Origin: a virus
Taxonomy: Duplodnaviria > Heunggongvirae > Uroviricota > Caudoviricetes
Strand: one strand, 5' to 3'
Length of the DNA: 21,500 bases
Virus record (IMG/VR): IMGVR_UViG_2529292759_000004
The position numbers were made by a program, and so were the translations under genes. This document shows positions 8,223 through 16,584 of the stretch, piece after piece (the first letter of the stretch is position 1; every line of letters begins with the position of its first letter). The notes below the pieces were generated by a model. That model did not search any database and had not been told where the DNA came from. It saw nothing but the letters and a program-made list of their open reading frames with translations.

Positions 8223-8776
8223 ATTCCAAACCCCATTTGCCCCGACTCATCTTCAAGCGGTAAAGGTATTCTCCCAGAGTAAGTTATGTTCAGATGTTTA
8301 CAGAAGTAATTCCAATACCCTACCAGGTCATCTGGGTTTATGTCATCTTCGATTGGAAACGCTATTCTATCACTATAGTATCCAGCTTCTTCATAGTATA
8401 CATGGTAGTGAGCACCGTAAATGATATCTTGGTACTTCGGATGATCGACCTTGTAACTATTCGTGTGTTTGTCAAAGTGATAGGTATCTACCGCGAAAAC
8501 CCTCTTGTTATGATAGAAAGCAATAATATTTATTTTAGGGTAAGAAATCGGGTCATCAGGTTCTGAATCCTGATCTGGTTTCCATTTCAGTTCAAACTTT
8601 AGCCCTTGTATAGGTATACAATCCTCATCCAAGGGGATGATATGGGCTTGTAGCCACATATCAGAGCGACTTGGTTTCTGTTTCCATTTAACGCCAGAAA
8701 AGTTAACTATTTTTTTACAATAAAGTACTTTATCAACTTCTACTTGGCTTGGCTGATAATCATCTATTTTTGCCAA
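8219..8776 (-). CDS. Hypothetical protein (185 aa), first gene of immunity-region cargo operon
   Basis: ORF starts 40 nt after the cI stop on the same strand. The track start at 8776 is TTG (first internal ATG is codon 40), so the true start is uncertain. Tyr/His-rich segment HYHVYYEEAGYY; no family recognised. Confidence 0.65.
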   Translation of the reverse strand: MAKIDDYQPSQVEVDKVLYCKKIVNFSGVKWKQKPSRSDMWLQAHIIPLDEDCIPIQGLKFELKWKPDQDSEPDDPISYPKINIIAFYHNKRVFAVDTYHFDKHTNSYKVDHPKYQDIIYGAHYHVYYEEAGYYSDRIAFPIEDDINPDDLVGYWNYFCKHLNITYSGRIPLPLEDESGQMGFGI

Positions 8777-8815
8777 TGTTTACCGCCCTGTAAATTGTAG
8801 ATAAAAGTGGTTTCA

Positions 8816-9475
8816 TCACCCAAACGTCTCTTCAGGCCATTGGCTGGCGATAACTTTCCCCACAACGGAACAACTCTCATTGCATGGGATCATTGGGTAT
8901 TGTGGGTTTAGTGGCTGTAGAAACACCTGACCGCTATCCCTGATCAGTTTCTTGAAGGTAAATTCATCACCACCAAGTCTGGCTATGCAGAAATCGCCGG
9001 GCTCAACAGCTTGCTCAGGGTCAACCAGAATTAACATCCCGTCAGGAAAGCTGGGTTTGGAACCTGTTGGTGCGGTCATTGAGTTACCTTCAACCTCAAG
9101 CCAGAATGCAGAGTCACTGGCTTTTTTGGTTGTGCTTACCAATCTCTCCGCATCGCCTTTGGTAAAGGTTCTGAGTTCTGGAGAGAACATCCCAGCCTGA
9201 ACATGAGAAAAAACAGGGTACTCATATTGTTTTTTAACTGGGGCCGATGAGTATTCGCCAACAGGTGAAAATGTCCCGTCGTGGTTGAATGATATGTTAT
9301 CAATACCAAGGTATTTAAACACCACACCAATATCACTAAGAGATGGATGACGAGATCCGCGCAACCAGTGTCCAATCCCACCCTGCGTCATACCTAGCTC
9401 TTCGGCTAACTTCTCTTGAGTTATGCCGAGCTCTTTCATTCTGGATCTAGCCAGTTCATACCATTTCATTTTCAT
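8816..9475 (-). CDS. cI: CI-type prophage repressor (HTH_XRE N-domain plus S24/LexA-like autopeptidase C-domain)
   Basis: HTH ...[21 protein letters not shown]...; Ala-Gly site (VQAGMF); Ser (GNSMTAP) and Lys (FKKL) of the S24 dyad. Track start 9517 is TTG; ATG candidates at 9509, 9475, 9469; AAGGA SD favours 9469/9475. Confidence 0.85.
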
Positions 9476-9586
9476 GTCCTTATTATTACGCTCTGTACTG
9501 GAACCATCCATGCACAATGTGTATTTTTACTTGTATTCGCAAAGTACATATTGTATTTTTTTATTCGTGTTTACTATGGAGGGCAT
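9476..9586. promoter_or_regulatory. oR operator / pRM-pR divergent promoter region
   Basis: 111-bp intergenic region between divergent cI and cro; repeated TTGTA/TACAA half-sites and the inverted 11-mer AAAGTACATAT (9541-9551); candidate pR -35 TTGTAT (9531-9536) and -10 TATTTT (9554-9559). Confidence 0.45.
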
Positions 9587-9802
9587 ATGAGCAACCTACG
9601 AAAATATCGAGAGTCACTGAATATCTCTCAAACAACACTTGCTAAGGCAGTTGGATGCACACAGGGAGCTATCGGACATTGGGAATCTGGTCGTCGCTTC
9701 CCAGACCTTAAAACATGCCGTGCTCTTGTTGCGTGCCTAAACAAGTTAGGCGCAAAAGTCAGTCTTGATGACGTGTTCCCGCCGGAACACAAAGCCGCTT
9801 AA
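9587..9802 (+). CDS. cro: Cro-type HTH repressor (71 aa)
   Basis: ATG at 9587 preceded by GGAGG; HTH ISQTTLAKAVGCTQGAIGHWESG; divergent from cI. The track ORF from 9416 is a non-ATG extension. Confidence 0.8.
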   Translation: MSNLRKYRESLNISQTTLAKAVGCTQGAIGHWESGRRFPDLKTCRALVACLNKLGAKVSLDDVFPPEHKAA

Positions 9803-9812
9803 TAAGCGGATC

Positions 9813-9858
9813 CGCTCTTTGTAACAACGGACATTCGTCCTACGTCGCTGAAAAGCGA
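9813..9858 (+). promoter_or_regulatory. nutR: boxA CGCTCTTTG plus boxB-like hairpin UCGCU-GAAA-AGCGA
   Basis: boxA at 9813-9821, spacer hairpin GGAC-attc-GTCC (9829-9840), boxB 9845-9858, directly downstream of the cro stop. Confidence 0.55.
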
Positions 9859-9887
9859 GTTCCAAGATATCTGACCAACTAAGGCCA

Positions 9888-9905
9888 TATGCGTTTCCAC
9901 GCATA
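9888..9905 (+). terminator. Candidate tR1-region hairpin
   Basis: ATGCGT-ttcc-ACGCAT stem-loop followed by ACCTTTCAAC, between nutR and cII; weak U-tract, may be rho-dependent. Confidence 0.25.
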
Positions 9906-9943
9906 CCTTTCAACTAACTATTCACTATTGGAAATCTTAAGAA

Positions 9944-10240
9944 ATGGAAAGAACAAGTTACAGCAAACTATCACAGCGTGACGTTGATCGCGCAGAAACA
10001 GATTTACTTATCAATCTGTCAGCTATTACCCAGCGCGGTCTGGCAAAGATGATTGGCTGTCATGAATCGAAGATAAGCAGAACGGACTGGAGATTTATTG
10101 CTTCGGTCTTGTGTGCTTTCGGAATGGCATCAGACATCAGTCCGATTAGCAGGGCTTTTAAGTATGCGCTTGATGGACTCACCAATAAAAAACGCCCGGC
10201 GGCAACCGAGCGTTCTGAACAAATCCAGATGGAATTCTGA
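9944..10240 (+). CDS. cII: CII transcriptional activator (98 aa), hybrid: divergent N-terminus, lambda-type C-terminus
   Basis: C-terminal LTNKKRPAATERSEQIQMEF matches lambda CII; the N-terminal DNA-binding part differs. Confidence 0.85.
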   Translation: MERTSYSKLSQRDVDRAETDLLINLSAITQRGLAKMIGCHESKISRTDWRFIASVLCAFGMASDISPISRAFKYALDGLTNKKRPAATERSEQIQMEF

Positions 10241-10262
10241 GGTCATTACTGGATCAATCCAC
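10184..10262 (-). ncRNA. oop: oop antisense RNA (about 77 nt) overlapping the cII 3' end
   Basis: Minus-strand sequence GAUUGAUCCAGUAAUGACCUCAGAAUUCCAUCUGGAUUUGUUCAGAACGCUCGGUUGCCGCCGGGCGUUUUUUAUU closely matches lambda oop as I recall it, including the terminator hairpin and U-run. Confidence 0.7.
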
Positions 10263-10272
10263 AGGAGTCATT

Positions 10273-11172
10273 ATGACAAATACAGCAAAAATACTCAACT
10301 TCTGCAGAGGTAACTTTGCCAAACAGGAGCGTAATGTGGCAGATCTCGATGATGGTTACGCCAGACTATCAAATATGCTGCTTGAGGCTTATTCAGGCGC
10401 AGATCTGACCAAGCGACAGTTTAAAGTGCTGCTTGCCATTCTGCGTAAAACCTATGGATGGAATAAACCAATGGACAGAATCACCGATTCTCAACTTAGC
10501 GAGATTACAAAGTTACCCGTCAAACGGTGCAATGAAGCCAAGTTAGAACTCGTCAGAATGAATATTATCAAGCAGCAAGGCGGCATGTTTGGACCAAATA
10601 AAAACATCTCAGAATGGTGTATCCCTCAAAACGAGGGAAAATCCCCTAAAACGAGGGATAAAACATCCCTCAAATTGGGGGATTGCTATCCCTCAAAACA
10701 GGGGGACACAAAAGACACTATTACAAAAGAAAAAAGAAAAGATTATTCGTCAGAGAATTCTGGCGAATCCTCTGACCAGCCAGAAAACGACCTTTCTGTG
10801 GTGAAACCGGATGCTGCAATTCAGAGCGGCAGCAAGTGGGGGACAGCAGAAGACCTGACCGCCGCAGAATGGATGTTTGACATGGTGAAGACCATCGCGC
10901 CATCAGCCAGAAAACCGAATTTTGCAGGGTGGGCTAACGATATCCGCCTGATGCGTGAACGTGACGGACGTAACCATCGCGACATGTGTGTACTGTTCCG
11001 CTGGGCATGCCAGGACAACTTCTGGTCCGGTAACGTGCTGAGCCCGGCCAAACTCCGCGACAAGTGGACCCAGCTCGAAATCAACCGTAACAAGCAACAG
11101 GCAGGTGTGACAGCCTGCAAACCAAAACTCGACCTGACAAACACTGACTGGATTTACGGGGTGGATTTATGA
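10273..11172 (+). CDS. O: Replication initiator O (299 aa)
   Basis: MTNTAKILNFCRGNFAKQERNVADLDDGYARLSNMLLEAY... matches lambda O; contains the ori iterons. Confidence 0.97.
   Translation: MTNTAKILNFCRGNFAKQERNVADLDDGYARLSNMLLEAYSGADLTKRQFKVLLAILRKTYGWNKPMDRITDSQLSEITKLPVKRCNEAKLELVRMNIIKQQGGMFGPNKNISEWCIPQNEGKSPKTRDKTSLKLGDCYPSKQGDTKDTITKEKRKDYSSENSGESSDQPENDLSVVKPDAAIQSGSKWGTAEDLTAAEWMFDMVKTIAPSARKPNFAGWANDIRLMRERDGRNHRDMCVLFRWACQDNFWSGNVLSPAKLRDKWTQLEINRNKQQAGVTACKPKLDLTNTDWIYGVDL
10621..10750 (+). repeat. ori-lambda: four 18-19 bp iterons plus AT-rich unwinding region
   Basis: Iterons ATCCCTCAAAACGAGGGA (10621-10638), ATCCCCTAAAACGAGGGAT (10641-10659), ATCCCTCAAATTGGGGGAT (10665-10683), ATCCCTCAAAACAGGGGGA (10688-10706), then an A/T-rich tract to about 10750. 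Confidence 0.85.
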
Positions 11173-11870
11173 AAAACATCGCCGCACAGATGGTTAATTT
11201 TGACCGTGAGCAGATGCGTCGGATCGCCAACAACATGCCGGAACAGTACGACGAAAAGCCGCAGGTACAGCAGGTAGCGCAGATCATCAACGGTGTGTTC
11301 AGCCAGTTACTGGCAACTTTCCCGGCGAGTCTGGCTAACCGTGACCAGAACGAACTGAACGAAATCCGCCGCCAGTGGGTTCTGGCTTTCCGGGAAAACG
11401 GGATCACCACAATGGAACAGGTTAACGCAGGAATGCGCGTAGCCCGTCGGCAGAATCGACCATTTCTGCCATCACCCGGGCAGTTTGTTGCATGGTGCCG
11501 GGAAGAAGCATCCGTTATCGCCGGACTGCCAAACGTCAGCGAGCTGGTTGATATGGTTTACGAGTATTGCCGGAAGCGAGGCCTGTATCCGGATGCAGAG
11601 TCTTATCCGTGGAAATCGAACGCGCACTACTGGCTGGTTACCAACCTGTACCAGAACATGCGGGCCAATGCGCTGACTGACGCGGAATTACGACGCAAGG
11701 CTGCCGATGAACTGACCTGTATGACAGCGCGAATTAACCGTGGTGAGACGATACCTGAACCAGTAAAACAACTTCCTGTCATGGGCGGCAGACCTCTAAA
11801 TCGTGTTCAGGCGCTGGCGAAGATCGCAGAAATTAAAGCTAAGTTAGGACTGAAAGGAGCAAGTGTATGA
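11169..11870 (+). CDS. P: Replication protein P (DnaB helicase loader), 233 aa
   Basis: MKNIAAQMVNFDREQMRRIANNMPEQYDEKPQVQQVAQIINGVFSQLL... matches lambda P; ATGA overlap with the O stop. Confidence 0.97.
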   Translation: MKNIAAQMVNFDREQMRRIANNMPEQYDEKPQVQQVAQIINGVFSQLLATFPASLANRDQNELNEIRRQWVLAFRENGITTMEQVNAGMRVARRQNRPFLPSPGQFVAWCREEASVIAGLPNVSELVDMVYEYCRKRGLYPDAESYPWKSNAHYWLVTNLYQNMRANALTDAELRRKAADELTCMTARINRGETIPEPVKQLPVMGGRPLNRVQALAKIAEIKAKLGLKGASV

Positions 11871-12182: not shown

Positions 12183-12214
12183 AGGCCTGCAGGTAATCGC
12201 AGGCCTTTTTATTT
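12183..12214 (+). terminator. Rho-independent terminator (tR2-like) before the nin region
   Basis: Stem AGGCCTGC / GCAGGCCT with loop AGGTAATC, followed by TTTTTATTT. Confidence 0.6.
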
Positions 12215-12230
12215 GGGGGAGAGGGAAGTC

Positions 12231-12671
12231 ATGAAAAAACTAACCTTTGAAATTCGATCTCCGGCACATCAGCAAAACGCTATTCACGCAGTACAGCAAA
12301 TCCTTCCAGACCCAACCAAACCAATCGTAGTAACCATTCAGGAACGCAACCGCAGCTTAGACCAAAACAGGAAGCTATGGGCCTGCTTAGGTGACGTCTC
12401 TCGTCAGGTTGAATGGCATGGTCGCTGGCTGGATGCAGAAAGCTGGAAGTGTGTGTTTACCGCAGCATTAAAGCAGCAGGATGTTGTTCCTAACCTTGCC
12501 GGGAATGGCTTTGTGGTAATAGGCCAGTCAACCAGCAGGATGCGTGTAAGCGAATTTGCGGAGCTATTAGAGCTTATACAGGCATTCGGTACAGAGCGTG
12601 GCGTTAAGTGGTCAGACGAAGCGCGACTGGCTCTCGAATGGAAAGCGCGATGGGGAGATCGGGCTGCATGA
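12231..12671 (+). CDS. ninB: NinB (Orf recombination protein family), 146 aa
   Basis: MKKLTFEIRSPAHQQNAIHAVQQILPDPTKPIVVTIQERNRSLDQNRKLWA... matches lambda NinB; ATG at 12231 with SD GGGAGAGGGAAG. The track start 12213 is TTG. Confidence 0.9.
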   Translation: MKKLTFEIRSPAHQQNAIHAVQQILPDPTKPIVVTIQERNRSLDQNRKLWACLGDVSRQVEWHGRWLDAESWKCVFTAALKQQDVVPNLAGNGFVVIGQSTSRMRVSEFAELLELIQAFGTERGVKWSDEARLALEWKARWGDRAA

Positions 12672-14418: not shown

Positions 14419-14503
14419 AGTCAGAGATAACAATCAACTAATACTGTTTTGTTGATTTTTGCTTGTAATTGGCGTTCTGGTCTGATTTTTGTGGAGTAAG
14501 TTG

Positions 14504-14887
14504 ATGCGTGATATTCAGATGGTTCTTGAGCGTTGGGGTGCGTGGGCGGCTAATAATCATGAAGATGTGACCTGGTCGTCCATTGCCGCCGGTTTTAAGG
14601 GATTAATTCCTTCAAAAGTAAAATCTCGCCCGCAATGTTGTGACGATGACGCGATGATCATTTGCGGGTGCATGGCCCGTCTGAAAAAGAACAACAGCGA
14701 TTTACACGATTTATTAGTAGATTATTATGTATGTGGTATGACATTCATGTCACTGGCAAGTAAGCATTGCTGCTCGGATGGTTATATCGGGAAAAGGTTA
14801 CAGAAGGCTGAGGGCATAATTGAAGGGATGTTAATGGCATTAGATATCCGGTTAGATATGGATATCGTTGCTAATAATTCTAATTGA
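14504..14887 (+). CDS. quuD: Q-type late-gene antiterminator (phage 82 / DLP12 QuuD type), 127 aa
   Basis: [60 protein letters not shown]... matches QuuD as I recall it; ATG at 14504. The track start 14489 is TTG. Confidence 0.85.
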
Positions 14888-15075: not shown

Positions 15076-16158
15076 TTAGAACTGATAAACCAGACCTACA
15101 GCGACGATGTCGTCGGTATCAATACCAGCTGTTTTGGTAAACTTACTATCGTCAATTAAGTTGATTTTGTAATCAACAAAAGTGGACATGTTTTTATTAA
15201 AGTAGTAAGTAGCACCGACATCGACATACTTGACTAAGTCTCGGTCACCATGAACACCAAGGTCTTTACCTTTTGACTGAAGGTAAGCAACAGATGGACG
15301 CAGACCGAAGTCAAACTGATATTGTGCTACTGCTTCAAAGTTTTGTGCTTTGTTTGCAATATGGTTATTACCAAAAACGGTCATATTCTGAGTTTCAGAA
15401 TATGTGGTAGCCAGATAGATATTGTTCGCATCATATTTCAGGCCTGCAGCCCATACTTCCGCATTTTTGCCGGAGGCATTGAATTTGCTCTTACCATAGG
15501 CGACCTGACCGTCAGTGCGATCTGATTTAGCATAGGTTGCACCCACGCCGAATCCTTCATACTCATAAGTAGTGGAGAAACCGAAACCATCACCATTGGC
15601 TTCAGTTACGTCAGTGCGGTCATTTTTACCCTGATACTGAGCAGCAAAGTTCAGGCCATCGACCAGACCAAAGAAGTCGTTGTTACGATAAGTTGCAACA
15701 CCAGTAGTGCGACCAGTCATGAACACATCTGTTTGGGTCCAGGTATCACCACCGAATTCTGGCAGAACGTCAGTCCACGCACCGATGTCGTATGCTACAC
15801 CGTAGTTACGGCCGTAATCGATTGAGCCGTAATCACCAAATTTCAGGCCTGCAAATGCAAGACGGGTTTTGTCTTTGGAAGAACCTTGAGATTCAGCACG
15901 GTTGCCTTTGAATTCATATTCCCACTGACCGAAACCAGTCAGTTGATCGTTGATTTGGGTTTCACCTTTGAAGCCAAGACGGGCATAAGTAGTATCACCA
16001 TCATCTGCATCATTAGAGGAGAAGTAGTGCTTGGCATTAACTTTCCCGTATAGATCCAGCTTGTTACTGTCTTTATTATAAATTTCAGCTGCCTGAGCAG
16101 ACATCGCCATCAGTACTGATGCAGCTACAGCAGAAATTGCCACTGTTAATTTTTTCAT
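15076..16158 (-). CDS. nmpC: Outer-membrane general porin, NmpC/OmpD-like (360 aa from MKKL...)
   Basis: Signal peptide [23 protein letters not shown], then AEIYNKD...; C-terminal beta-barrel signature ending ...VGLVYQF; ATG at 16156-16158 with SD AAGGG. The track start 16218 is an upstream extension. Confidence 0.9.
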
Positions 16159-16584
16159 TGTACGCCCTTTTTTTGAACTATTATTAAAAAATGATGTCAC
16201 TGCGCGATAAATATTCATCTAATCAATGTGATTATTTCAAGATGTAAGTTTTAGTTTCTCATTTAATTTGTGAAGTAGATCTCTATTTTTATCTGAACCT
16301 TTTCTATCTAATCCTATTCATGGCTCTTGTCTGAACAAAAATAAATCTATTAGCTAATTTATATTAATGGCACTTATTTATAAGTGCTCTATAATTCTTT
16401 AGCTTAATTTAAACAAACTAAAAATAACATTGGAAATTATTAACTGGTTATTTGTTGAAGTTTTCTTATGCATTTGTGGTGGTGTTTTGAACACTCGGTG
16501 GCATTCTCACAAATATCATTTAGTAGTTTACGTACGTAAAAAATTGGTTATGCTGTTAAGAGTGGTTACTTCGTCACACAGCTT

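What the first reader, a model, noticed from the sequence alone, without database searches (positions are those of the whole stretch)
9813..9858. nutR mirrors nutL: boxA CGCUCUUUG, spacer hairpin GGAC-auuc-GUCC, boxB UCGCU-GAAA-AGCGA
This is the second copy of the same composite nut architecture, immediately after the cro stop. Both copies share the boxB core GCUGAAAAGC while the boxB stem ends and the spacer hairpin stem differ. That pattern (conserved loop and flanks, compensatory stem changes) argues for a functional RNA structure and not a chance match.
Basis: seen in the sequence. Interest (0 to 1): 0.45.

Follow-up and report, generated by a model that had tools for sequence, protein, structure and literature searches.

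The report
Known nutR antitermination site of prophage
This is the ordinary rightward N-utilisation (nutR) RNA site of a Shiga-toxin-phage-like lambdoid prophage.

Summary
Window 9813-9858 (+) holds boxA CGCUCUUUG, a spacer hairpin GGAC-AUUC-GUCC, a UACG linker and a boxB hairpin UCGCU-GAAA-AGCGA, starting 10 nt after the cro stop. A second copy with the same layout lies at 7177-7132 (-), between pL and N. The composite motif occurs twice where shuffles give none.

The interpretation (nutR/nutL) is supported. The phage encodes an N protein (Pfam N_peptide) that is 99% identical to VT2-Sakai N. The VT2-Sakai GenBank record annotates these same sequences as "putative N-utilization rightward/leftward". 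From the spacer hairpin to the cII start, the region equals the experimentally used H-19B nutR-tR1, apart from one deleted loop base and three SNPs.

Across about 280 related loci, both hairpins keep pairing through compensatory changes. Every phage with this N and enough flank has both sites except one, behind several different cro genes.

The one mildly new point is that this N subfamily uses a true GNRA tetraloop boxB (GAAA or GCAA). H-19B-type N proteins, which have a different arginine-rich motif, use GACAA.

Verdict: real, functional by strong inference, already known, low interest.

The parts
9813..9858 (+). nutR as a whole: boxA, spacer with hairpin, linker and boxB
   Evidence: Sequence read. 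The composite motif occurs 2x against 0 expected. It is identical to the VT2-Sakai 'putative N-utilization rightward' feature, which maps to window 9813-9852.
9813..9821 (+). boxA CGCUCUUUG. This is the rrn-like type with the extra U, and it is followed by UAACAAC up to 9828.
   Evidence: The consensus rrn boxA is UGCUCUUUA and lambda boxA is CGCUCUUA (PMC2724277). GCTCTT is kept in nearly all sites of this N subfamily.
9829..9840 (+). Spacer hairpin GGAC-AUUC-GUCC, the 'reducer' type dyad of H-19B nut sites
   Evidence: It folds at -3.8 kcal/mol and is identical in H-19B nutR. Covariation across 40 distinct sites is shown, and RNAalifold recovers it.
9841..9844 (+). Single-stranded linker UACG between the two hairpins
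   Evidence: It is TACG (rarely CACG) in all 103 distinct related sites, both nutL and nutR and both loop classes.
9845..9858 (+). boxB: 5-bp stem UCGCU/AGCGA closing a GAAA (GNRA) tetraloop; presumed N-binding hairpin
   Evidence: It folds at -5.7 kcal/mol. Stem pairs 1, 2 and 5 covary (U-A/A-U/G-C; C-G/G-C; U-A/C-G/U.G). The loop is GAAA or GCAA with this ARM type and GACAA with the H-19B ARM type.
7132..7177 (-). nutL, the paralogous copy: boxA GGCUCUUUA (7177-7169), hairpin GUCGA-CUC-UCGAC (7162-7150), UACG (7149-7146), boxB UGGCU-GAAA-AGCCA (7145-7132)
   Evidence: The VT2-Sakai 'putative N-utilization leftward' feature maps to window 7177-7137.
6761..7033 (-). N gene (90 aa). The ARM is MSRKTEFKGTAASRRRARRANLQSQEA, and the conserved C-terminus is CLPNVALYAAGYRKSKQLTAR.
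   Evidence: Pfam PF25694 N_peptide, E=1.5e-32. It is 99% identical to VT2-Sakai N and 42% identical to H-19B N.
9531..9559 (+). pR (TTGTAT-17-TATTTT) with overlapping operators; source of the transcript that carries nutR
   Evidence: Placed by homology only: the region is 98% identical to the VT2-Sakai region annotated 'putative major rightward promoter'. The consensus scan did not call it.
7223..7251 (-). pL (TTGATC-17-TACTAT); source of the transcript that carries nutL and N
   Evidence: Placed by homology only: the region is 95% identical to the VT2-Sakai region annotated 'putative major leftward promoter'.
9587..9802 (+). cro (71 aa, HTH_3). nutR begins 10 nt after its stop codon.
9881..9913 (+). 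tR1 region: hairpin UAUGCGU-UUCC-ACGCAUA without a U-run; the first terminator that N must override before cII
   Evidence: It folds at -9.6 kcal/mol, z -4.65. The equivalent VT2-Sakai stretch is annotated 'putative rho dependent terminator for pR transcript'. The sequence is identical to the H-19B nutR-tR1 used in Rho/N experiments (PMC3526286).

Best explanation
Window 9813-9858 is the nutR site of a VT2-Sakai/ev017-type lambdoid prophage. It acts as RNA.

**Proposed mechanism.**
1. RNA polymerase leaves pR, transcribes cro and then transcribes nutR.
2. The nascent RNA folds locally into two small hairpins.
3. The arginine-rich N-terminus of the phage N protein (gene 7033-6761) binds the boxB hairpin, a 5-bp stem capped by a GAAA GNRA tetraloop.
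4. NusB/S10 bind the rrn-like boxA, and NusA contacts N and the single-stranded spacer.
5. The spacer hairpin is a passive 'reducer'. It takes 12 nt out of the linear path, so boxA...ACAAC and UACG-boxB end up at a lambda-like distance.
6. The complex stays attached to the polymerase through the RNA loop.
7. This makes the polymerase resistant to the Rho-dependent tR1 (about 9881-9913) and to later terminators, so cII, O, P, the nin genes and Q (14489-14887) are expressed.
8. The twin site nutL (7177-7132, minus strand) does the same for the pL operon.

**Shown here:**
- the sequences, their positions and the presence of the cognate N gene
- identity to annotated and studied homologues
- covariation of both hairpins
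- co-variation of the boxB loop class with the N ARM class

**Inferred from the lambda, P22 and H-19B paradigms:**
- binding of N to boxB
- involvement of the Nus factors
- the passive role of the spacer hairpin
- read-through of tR1
For: - **Anatomy and chance:**
- **Cognate N:** PF25694, 99% identical to VT2-Sakai N.
- **Prior annotation:** AP000422.1 carries 'putative N-utilization rightward' at the same bases, plus pR, tR1 and nutL.
- **H-19B:** its nutR has the same hairpin, the same UACG and the same boxB stem. The whole stretch from the hairpin to cII differs only by one deleted loop C and 3 SNPs. H-19B nutR is an experimentally used N site with 'two hairpins' (spacer and boxB) that are protected by N plus NusA/G (PMC3526286).
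- **Same N, different cro:** nutR is retained from boxA onward behind at least three unrelated cro C-termini. It is present in 47/47 and 10/11 loci with this N and at least 4.5 kb of flank.
- **Spacer hairpin covariation:** stems GGAC/GTCC, GGACG/CGTCC, GTCGA/TCGAC, GGTGA/TCACC, GGCGA/TTGCC and GATTC/GAATC, with loops of 3-6 nt that vary freely. Pairing is 93% against 59.5% in shuffles (0/500), slid controls give 31-51%, and 4 of 5 pairs change on both sides.
- **RNAalifold:** it returns exactly these two hairpins, with 6 of 9 pairs compensatory.
- **Specificity link:** the ARM type RRRxRRAxLQS always goes with GAAA or GCAA loops at both sites. The ARM type RRRERLK... (H-19B) always goes with GACAA (78/80 nutL, 62/62 nutR). 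L117 has an N body of the short (90-aa-type) subfamily but an H-19B-like ARM, and it has GACAA at both sites.
Against: - No experiment on this exact sequence was found. The GenBank features are labelled 'putative'.
- Rfam has no nut family, so there is no independent model hit.
- In isolation, the 61-nt RNA prefers an alternative fold that pairs boxA with the 3' arm of boxB (-16.3 kcal/mol).
- Within close relatives the nutR stems are invariant. The covariation signal therefore comes from nutL/nutR paralogues and more distant N subfamilies, which are related by descent.
- The passive 'reducer' role and the Nus-factor requirements come from my recollection of Neely & Friedman 2000. That paper could not be read here; only its citation was confirmed.
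Confidence: 0.93

Rival explanations
1. The two hairpins are primarily part of the Rho-dependent terminator tR1. They would serve as a rut or Rho-loading and NusA-binding region, not as an N-recruitment site.
For: In H-19B the nutR spacer is the site where Rho makes its initial footprint, and it overlaps the NusA site (PMC3526286). The window sequence downstream of boxB is identical to H-19B tR1.
Against: The same architecture is duplicated at nutL directly upstream of N. The paper states that nutL has no overlapping Rho terminator. The boxB loop class tracks the N ARM class, which a pure rut element would not do. The two roles are not exclusive: nutR and rut overlap in lambda and H-19B.
Confidence: 0.04
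2. The conservation is only hitch-hiking. The segment would be carried along as part of the highly conserved cro-cII mosaic module, and the palindromes would be chance features with no RNA function.
For: From the hairpin to cII, the region is about 97-100% identical in many Stx and non-Stx phages. Invariant stems in close relatives therefore say nothing. The z-scores of the 61-nt folds are weak.
Against: The composite motif occurs twice in opposite operons where 0 is expected. Divergent relatives, with N down to about 50% identity, keep pairing through double changes. Hairpin loops vary while stems stay paired. The mosaic breakpoint sits exactly between the cro stop and boxA.
Confidence: 0.02
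3. The functional structure is the alternative long-range helix in which boxA (CGCU.UUU) pairs with the 3' half of boxB (AAA.AGCG) and encloses the spacer hairpin. This would act as a switch that masks boxA and boxB until factors bind.
For: It is the minimum-energy fold of the 61-nt nutR RNA (-16.3 kcal/mol), and a similar fold appears for nutL. In this window the first boxA base matches the boxB arm in both sites, C in nutR and G in nutL.
Against: Only 14 of 200 shuffles fold as well, giving z -1.6. Across distinct nutL-type sites the first boxA base is C 17, G 9, A 9 and T 3, so the pair is kept in only 9 of 38. RNAalifold does not predict this helix. The remaining complementarity follows automatically from the boxA consensus GCUCUUU and a boxB of the form xGCU-GAAA-AGCx. 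Local hairpins also form first during transcription.
Confidence: 0.05
4. The spacer hairpin is a sequence-specific binding site for N, a Nus factor or another phage protein, rather than a passive distance reducer.
For: The first pair G-C, the 5' flank ACAAC/ACAAT and the 3' flank UACG are nearly invariant. In H-19B the spacer is protected by N plus NusA/G and by Rho.
Against: Four of the five stem pairs change freely between at least six stem sequences. Loops range from 3 to 6 nt with no conserved base. From memory, Neely & Friedman 2000 found that deleting the dyad had little effect and that compensatory arm changes restored activity.
Confidence: 0.1

Closest known systems
nutR / nutL of Stx2 prophage VT2-Sakai (GenBank AP000422.1, features 'putative N-utilization rightward/leftward')
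   Same: N is 99% identical. The nutR and nutL sequences are identical from boxA through boxB. The positions after cro and before N are the same, and pR, pL and tR1 are homologous.
   Different: The annotated features stop inside the boxB loop (they map to window 9813-9852 and 7177-7137). The annotation is 'putative', with no experiment attached. The genes between cI and pL differ from those in the window.
nutR / nutL of Stx1 phage H-19B (AF034975; Neely & Friedman 2000, Mol Microbiol 38:1074, pmid 11123680; used by the Sen laboratory, PMC3526286 and PMC4499122)
   Same: The architecture is the same: boxA, spacer hairpin, UACG, boxB. The nutR spacer hairpin GGACAUUCGUCC is identical, as are the boxB stem UCGCU/AGCGA and the downstream tR1. 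Both hairpins are documented in the literature. The N protein belongs to the same Pfam family and has the same C-terminal RNAP-binding end.
   Different: The H-19B boxB loop is the pentaloop GACAA, whereas here it is the tetraloop GAAA, one C fewer. H-19B N is 127 aa, with the ARM RRRERLKAKALANGVLA and only 42% identity. The H-19B nutR boxA is degenerate (CGCUAUUUU) and its nutL has no boxA, whereas both boxA copies here fit the rrn-type consensus. By inference, this may mean a stronger NusB/S10 dependence than I recall being reported for H-19B.
Phage lambda nutR / nutL (boxA CGCUCUUA, 8-9 nt linear spacer, boxB GCCCU-GAARA-AGGGC)
   Same: The genomic placement and order of elements are the same. 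boxB is a 5-bp stem with a purine-rich GNRA-like loop closed by U-A. Both are recognised by an N protein with an ARM, and nutR overlaps tR1 (PMC2724277; PMC3526286).
   Different: Lambda has no hairpin in the spacer. Its boxB loop has 5 nt and folds as a GNRA tetraloop with one base extruded (Legault et al. 1998, from memory), whereas here the loop is already 4 nt. The lambda boxA lacks the extra U. Lambda N is not detectably similar outside the ARM.
Phage P22 nut sites and N (gp24)
   Same: The N C-terminal motif LPxVALYAAGYRKSKQLTAR is shared (P0094 and related). As I recall it, the P22 boxB loop GACAA equals the H-19B loop, and it becomes the loop found here when its C is removed.
   Different: The P22 ARM (GNAKTRRHERRRKLAIERD) is of a different class. 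I know of no spacer hairpin in P22, and this was not tested here.

Membership tests
Lambdoid N-utilisation (nut) site | Lies on the early transcript, downstream of pR (after cro) or pL (before N) and upstream of the first terminator | tested here: met
   nutR starts 10 nt after the cro stop and about 250 nt after pR, and it lies before tR1 and cII. nutL lies about 45 nt after pL and about 100 nt before N. The promoters are placed by homology to an annotated record, not by experiment.
Lambdoid N-utilisation (nut) site | boxA matching (C/U)GCUCUU(U)A | tested here: met
   CGCUCUUUG at 9813-9821 and GGCUCUUUA at 7177-7169. The consensus comes from PMC2724277. GCTCTT is kept in 94 of 103 distinct related sites.
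Lambdoid N-utilisation (nut) site | boxB: short stem-loop 3' of boxA with a GNRA-like purine-rich loop, with pairing maintained in evolution | tested here: met
   UCGCU-GAAA-AGCGA has a 5-bp stem. Three of its five pairs covary, and the loop is GAAA or GCAA. The loop is 4 nt rather than the 5 nt of lambda, P22 and H-19B.
Lambdoid N-utilisation (nut) site | A cognate N protein with an arginine-rich motif is encoded by the same phage, and boxB matches that N | tested here: met
   PF25694, E=1.5e-32. The loop class follows the ARM class without exception in about 250 loci, including the ARM-swap case L117.
Lambdoid N-utilisation (nut) site | Two copies per phage, nutL and nutR, with the same boxB specificity | tested here: met
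   for the window. In relatives, 47/47 and 10/11 have both copies.
Lambdoid N-utilisation (nut) site | N- and Nus-dependent read-through of downstream terminators | not testable with these tools
   This needs reporter or in vitro transcription assays. The only indirect support is the near-identity to H-19B nutR-tR1, for which such assays exist.
H-19B-type nut site with spacer 'reducer' hairpin | [quoted passage not shown] | tested here: met
   GGAC-AUUC-GUCC at 9829-9840 and GUCGA-CUC-UCGAC at 7162-7150. The nutR hairpin is identical to the one in H-19B.
H-19B-type nut site with spacer 'reducer' hairpin | Pairing matters, not the sequence of the arms | tested here: met
   Shown by comparative evidence only. 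There are at least six different stems, 4 of 5 pairs have double changes, and pairing is 93% against 59.5% in shuffles.
H-19B-type nut site with spacer 'reducer' hairpin | The hairpin is dispensable when deleted; boxA, NusB and S10 are not required (as I recall from Neely & Friedman 2000) | not testable with these tools
   The paper is not held. The well-conserved rrn-type boxA in this subfamily suggests that boxA is used here. If so, this would be a difference from H-19B.

The most novel reading that the evidence does not exclude
The N subfamily of this prophage (ARM ...SRRRxRRAxLQS...) recognises a boxB capped by a true 4-nt GNRA tetraloop, GAAA or GCAA, used interchangeably. H-19B-type N proteins (ARM RRRERLKAKALANG...) use the GACAA pentaloop. 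The nutR sites of the two types differ essentially by one loop nucleotide.

The switch has occurred on at least two different N backbones: H-19B (127 aa) and L117 (97 aa).

If this has not been described before, it is a minimal natural specificity switch for ARM-RNA recognition. It would also be a natural case in which assembly of the N-NusA complex does not need an extruded boxB loop base.
Probability: 0.3. Interest if true: 0.4.

Novelty: already known. Interest (0 to 1): 0.15.

Why it matters
**Annotation.** The result confirms that the window is the complete early-regulatory region of a lambdoid prophage with intact N, nutL and nutR. It fixes where delayed-early antitermination starts. The same 66-nt stretch is present in 755 of 5,426 complete E. 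coli genomes, including Nissle 1917 and the type strain, and RefSeq leaves it unannotated.

**Biology.** Little is added. The site type was defined in lambda decades ago, the hairpin-in-spacer variant was defined in H-19B in 2000, and this very sequence was annotated in VT2-Sakai.

**The small residue of interest.** Tetraloop and pentaloop boxB classes co-vary cleanly with the N arginine-rich motif. This could serve as a compact model for protein-RNA co-evolution. boxA is also well conserved in this subfamily, in contrast to H-19B.

Tried and rejected
- **Rfam:** a search at E<=10 over 6000-11000 found no nut, boxB or any other credible family.
- **Promoter scan:** the consensus scan did not call pR or pL. 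They were placed by homology instead.
- **PDB:** a sequence search with N gave no hit.
- **Genome-contig scan:** a scan with an N alignment gave only 11 loci, mostly C-terminal matches, and these were not used.
- **Neely & Friedman 2000 and Weisberg & Gottesman 1999:** neither could be read. Full-text searches for the 'reducer' or for a natural tetraloop boxB found nothing relevant. Statements about the 'reducer' experiments are therefore from memory.
- **Alignments:** MAFFT on all 57 full-length distinct sites misaligned the H-19B nutL copies and the pentaloop 3' arms. I replaced it with a trimmed alignment for the hairpin and anchored parsing in Python for boxB.
- **First composite-hairpin scan:** the permissive scan gave many chance hits and was tightened.
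- **Rejected hypothesis 1:** that GAAA versus GCAA tracks the ARM. The same ARM occurs with either loop, and one phage group uses GAAA at nutL and GCAA at nutR.
- **Rejected hypothesis 2:** that a conserved boxA:boxB-3' alternative helix exists.

Full report
**What is in the sequence**

One search shows the cro stop TAA at 9800-9802. It is followed by:
- CGCTCTTTG (9813-9821)
- TAACAAC
- GGAC-ATTC-GTCC (9829-9840)
- TACG (9841-9844)
- TCGCT-GAAA-AGCGA (9845-9858)

On the minus strand the same layout appears between a leftward promoter and the N gene:
- GGCTCTTTA (7177-7169)
- AACAAC
- GTCGA-CTC-TCGAC (7162-7150)
- TACG (7149-7146)
- TGGCT-GAAA-AGCCA (7145-7132)

The decamer GCTGAAAAGC occurs only at these two places, against 0.03 expected. 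The composite pattern CTCTTT-N20-30-TACGTNGCTGAAAAGC occurs twice, and none of 100 shuffles gives any match. Each of the four short hairpins folds as drawn.

**Context**

The window is the early region of a lambdoid prophage:

| Gene or feature | Coordinates |
|---|---|
| Probable integrase (not checked) | 1-1143 (-) |
| YqaJ/RecT recombination genes | 3009-4471 (-) |
| sieB | 6163-6744 (+) |
| N | 7033-6761 (-) |
| Two unknown ORFs | 8776-7470 (-) |
| cI | 9475-8816 (-) |
| cro | 9587-9802 (+) |
| cII | 9944-10240 (+) |
| O | 10273-11172 (+) |
| P | 11169-11870 (+) |
| ninB | 12213-12671 (+) |
| Q | 14489-14887 (+) |
| Porin | 15076-16218 (-) |
| Lysozyme | 16962-17459 (+) |
| Nu1 | 20001-20549 (+) |

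The 90-aa N matches Pfam PF25694 'Transcriptional antitermination N peptide' at E=1.5e-32.

The nutR and N regions are 100% identical to Escherichia phages ev017, ev207, 2G7b and PhiR11_1. They are 94-98% identical to many Stx-converting phages.

**It is already annotated**

N is 99% identical to VT2-Sakai N. The VT2-Sakai record AP000422.1 carries these features:
- 'putative N-utilization rightward', directly after cro
- 'putative rho dependent terminator for pR transcript'
- 'putative N-utilization leftward'
- pR, pL and operators

These are shown. Aligned to the window, the nut features fall on 9813-9852 and 7177-7137. The nut sequences are identical from boxA through boxB. The promoter-operator regions are 98% and 95% identical.

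**It is the near-twin of a studied site**

H-19B (AF034975) has, after its own unrelated cro end, CGCTATTTTCACAAT-GGACATTCGTCC-TACG-TCGCT-GACAA-AGCGA. From the hairpin to the cII ATG, the window differs from H-19B only by loss of the loop C and three substitutions.

H-19B nutL has a different hairpin (GATTC-GAATAT-GAATC), the same TACG and GCGCT-GACAA-AGCGC.

PMC3526286 uses H-19B nutR/tR1. It states that the site has two hairpins, spacer and boxB, and that N plus NusA/G protect the spacer and boxB while Rho protects the spacer.

The paper that described the spacer dyad is Neely & Friedman 2000. Its citation was confirmed, but the paper is not held. From memory, it showed three things:
- Breaking one arm inactivates the site, and compensatory changes restore it.
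- Deleting the dyad has little effect, hence the name 'reducer'.
- H-19B N needs NusA but not NusB, S10 or boxA.

**Comparative test**

I collected about 280 loci:
- 80 with the same N
- loci for eight N homologues of 40-82% identity
- relatives of two of them
- 80 with H-19B-type N

nutL is present in 79 of 80 loci. nutR is present in 47/47 and 10/11 loci that extend at least 4.5 kb beyond N. nutR follows at least three unrelated cro C-termini, and conservation starts at boxA.

*(b) Spacer hairpin.* There are at least six stem sequences: GGAC/GTCC, GGACG/CGTCC or TGTCC, GTCGA/TCGAC, GGTGA/TCACC, GGCGA/TTGCC and GATTC/GAATC. Loops are 3-6 nt and vary freely. On 40 distinct sites:
- 93% of cells are paired against 59.5% in shuffles (0/500).
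- 4 of 5 pairs change on both sides.
- Sliding the partner gives 31-51%.

*(c) boxB.* Pair 1 is U-A, A-U or G-C. Pair 2 is C-G (nutR type) or G-C (nutL type). Pairs 3 and 4 are invariant. Pair 5 is U-A, C-G or U.G. The change of the closing pair to C-G with the GAAA loop kept (L173) supports a 5-bp stem and a 4-nt loop.

*(d) RNAalifold.* On 18 diverse sites it returns exactly the two hairpins, with 6 of 9 pairs compensatory.

*(e) Flanks.* The linker TACG (rarely CACG) and the 5' flank ACAAC/ACAAT are nearly invariant.

**Link to N**

Aligning N homologues shows distinct arginine-rich motifs on a common C-terminus.

| N ARM type | boxB loop | Counts |
|---|---|---|
| ...RRRxRRAxLQS... (this phage and relatives down to about 50% identity) | GAAA or GCAA | all loci of this type |
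| RRRERLKAKALANG... (H-19B type) | GACAA | 78/80 nutL, 62/62 nutR |

L117 has an N body of the short (90-aa-type) subfamily but an H-19B-like ARM (RRRERLKSAAISRG). It has GACAA at both sites.

GAAA and GCAA do not track the ARM. The same ARM occurs with either loop, and one group uses GAAA at nutL and GCAA at nutR. This is what recognition of a GNRA fold would predict.

This is good indirect evidence that boxB is the N target. It is also the only part of the picture I could not find described.

**Mechanism**

By inference from the lambda, P22 and H-19B paradigms:
1. The pR transcript folds into the two local hairpins.
2. The N ARM binds the boxB GNRA loop.
3. NusB/S10 bind the rrn-type boxA. 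The window has CGCUCUUUG and GGCUCUUUA, and the rrn consensus is UGCUCUUUA.
4. NusA binds N and the single-stranded spacer.
5. The spacer hairpin shortens the path between boxA and boxB.
6. The complex makes RNA polymerase resistant to the Rho-dependent tR1 and to later terminators up to Q.

tR1 here is the hairpin at 9888-9905, which has no U-run and is annotated in VT2-Sakai.

boxA is much better conserved here than in H-19B, where nutR has CGCUAUUUU and nutL has none. This subfamily may therefore depend on NusB/S10 more than H-19B does. That is an inference.

**Rivals**

- **Pure rut/tR1 element.** This does not explain the nutL copy or the ARM-loop link, although the nutR and rut roles probably overlap.
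- **Hitch-hiking.** This is contradicted by the compensatory changes and by the mosaic boundary at boxA.
- **Alternative boxA:boxB-3' helix.** It is the minimum-energy fold but is not special (z -1.6). It lacks covariation: the discriminating pair is kept in only 9 of 38 nutL-type sites. RNAalifold does not predict it.
- **Sequence-specific role for the spacer hairpin.** This is unlikely given the free variation of stem and loop. The conserved flanks may nevertheless be contacted.

**Verdict**

The element is real and was correctly interpreted, but it is already known. The identical sequence is annotated as putative nutR in VT2-Sakai, and the architecture was characterised in H-19B. It is also very common, present in 755 of 5,426 complete E. 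coli genomes. Interest is low. The residual novelty is the co-variation of tetraloop versus pentaloop boxB with the N ARM.

Noticed in passing
window 7039-7125 (-), between nutL and the N start codon: The N leader folds into a long irregular hairpin (-39.3 kcal/mol, z -4.2, 0 of 200 shuffles as stable). Its base pairs with part of the Shine-Dalgarno GGGAGG at 7044-7039. It resembles the lambda N-leader structure, which is an RNase III site that controls N translation (from memory).
   Followed up: partly
window 10189-10298 (-), inside the 3' end of cII and the cII-O gap: A promoter-like site (TTGAGT-17-CATAAT, 10298-10270) is followed by a strong intrinsic terminator: a 12-bp stem plus a U-run at 10216-10189 (fold -28.4 kcal/mol). 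It looks like an oop-type antisense RNA of about 75 nt opposite cII. Rfam gave no hit.
   Followed up: partly
window 9795-9809 (+): The hairpin CCGCUU-AAU-AAGCGG (-7.5 kcal/mol) spans the cro stop codon. On the minus strand it was flagged as terminator-like. It travels with this cro type only; other cro types next to the same nutR lack it.
   Followed up: partly
window 7470-8776 (-): Two overlapping ORFs (185 aa with a weak DUF6978 match, and 250 aa with DUF1828) lie between cI and pL, where lambda has rexAB. They are followed by an intrinsic terminator at 7466-7445. This is a candidate lysogen-expressed exclusion or defence cassette. VT2-Sakai has different genes at this position.
   Followed up: no
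window 6163-6744 (+): A SieB superinfection-exclusion gene (PF14163, E=2.5e-22) is convergent with N, and its stop lies 17 nt from the N stop.
   Followed up: no
window 15076-16218 (-): A full-length Gram-negative porin gene (PF00267, E=2e-151) sits on the opposite strand between Q (14489-14887) and the lysis genes. It is an lc/nmpC-like moron.
   Followed up: no
L107 and L108, about 4837-4880 (+) (Salmonella prophages with N = P0050): These phages have an H-19B-type ARM and a nutR boxB UCGCU-GACAA-GGCGA. At nutL, however, the hairpin after UACG is GCUC-CGUCAAC-GAGC, which has no GNRA-like loop. This may be a degenerate or differently recognised nutL. It remains unexplained.
   Followed up: no
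L117 4968-5294 (+) and its nut sites (about 4912 on +, about 7885 on -): The N body is of the short (90-aa-type) subfamily but the ARM is H-19B-like (RRRERLKSAAISRG). Both boxB loops are GACAA, closed by C-G instead of U-A. This is a natural ARM and boxB swap.
   Followed up: partly
window 9813 and 7177 (first boxA base) against 9846 and 7144 (boxB arm): In this window the first four bases of boxA repeat the boxB 5' arm in both sites: CGCU in nutR and GGCU in nutL. This gives the alternative boxA:boxB-3' helix. The match is not conserved in relatives.
   Followed up: yes
E. coli genome hits H61-H68: The 66-nt nutR stretch is present in 755 of 5,426 complete E. coli genomes, including Nissle 1917 and ATCC 11775. 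RefSeq has no feature annotated under it.
   Followed up: no
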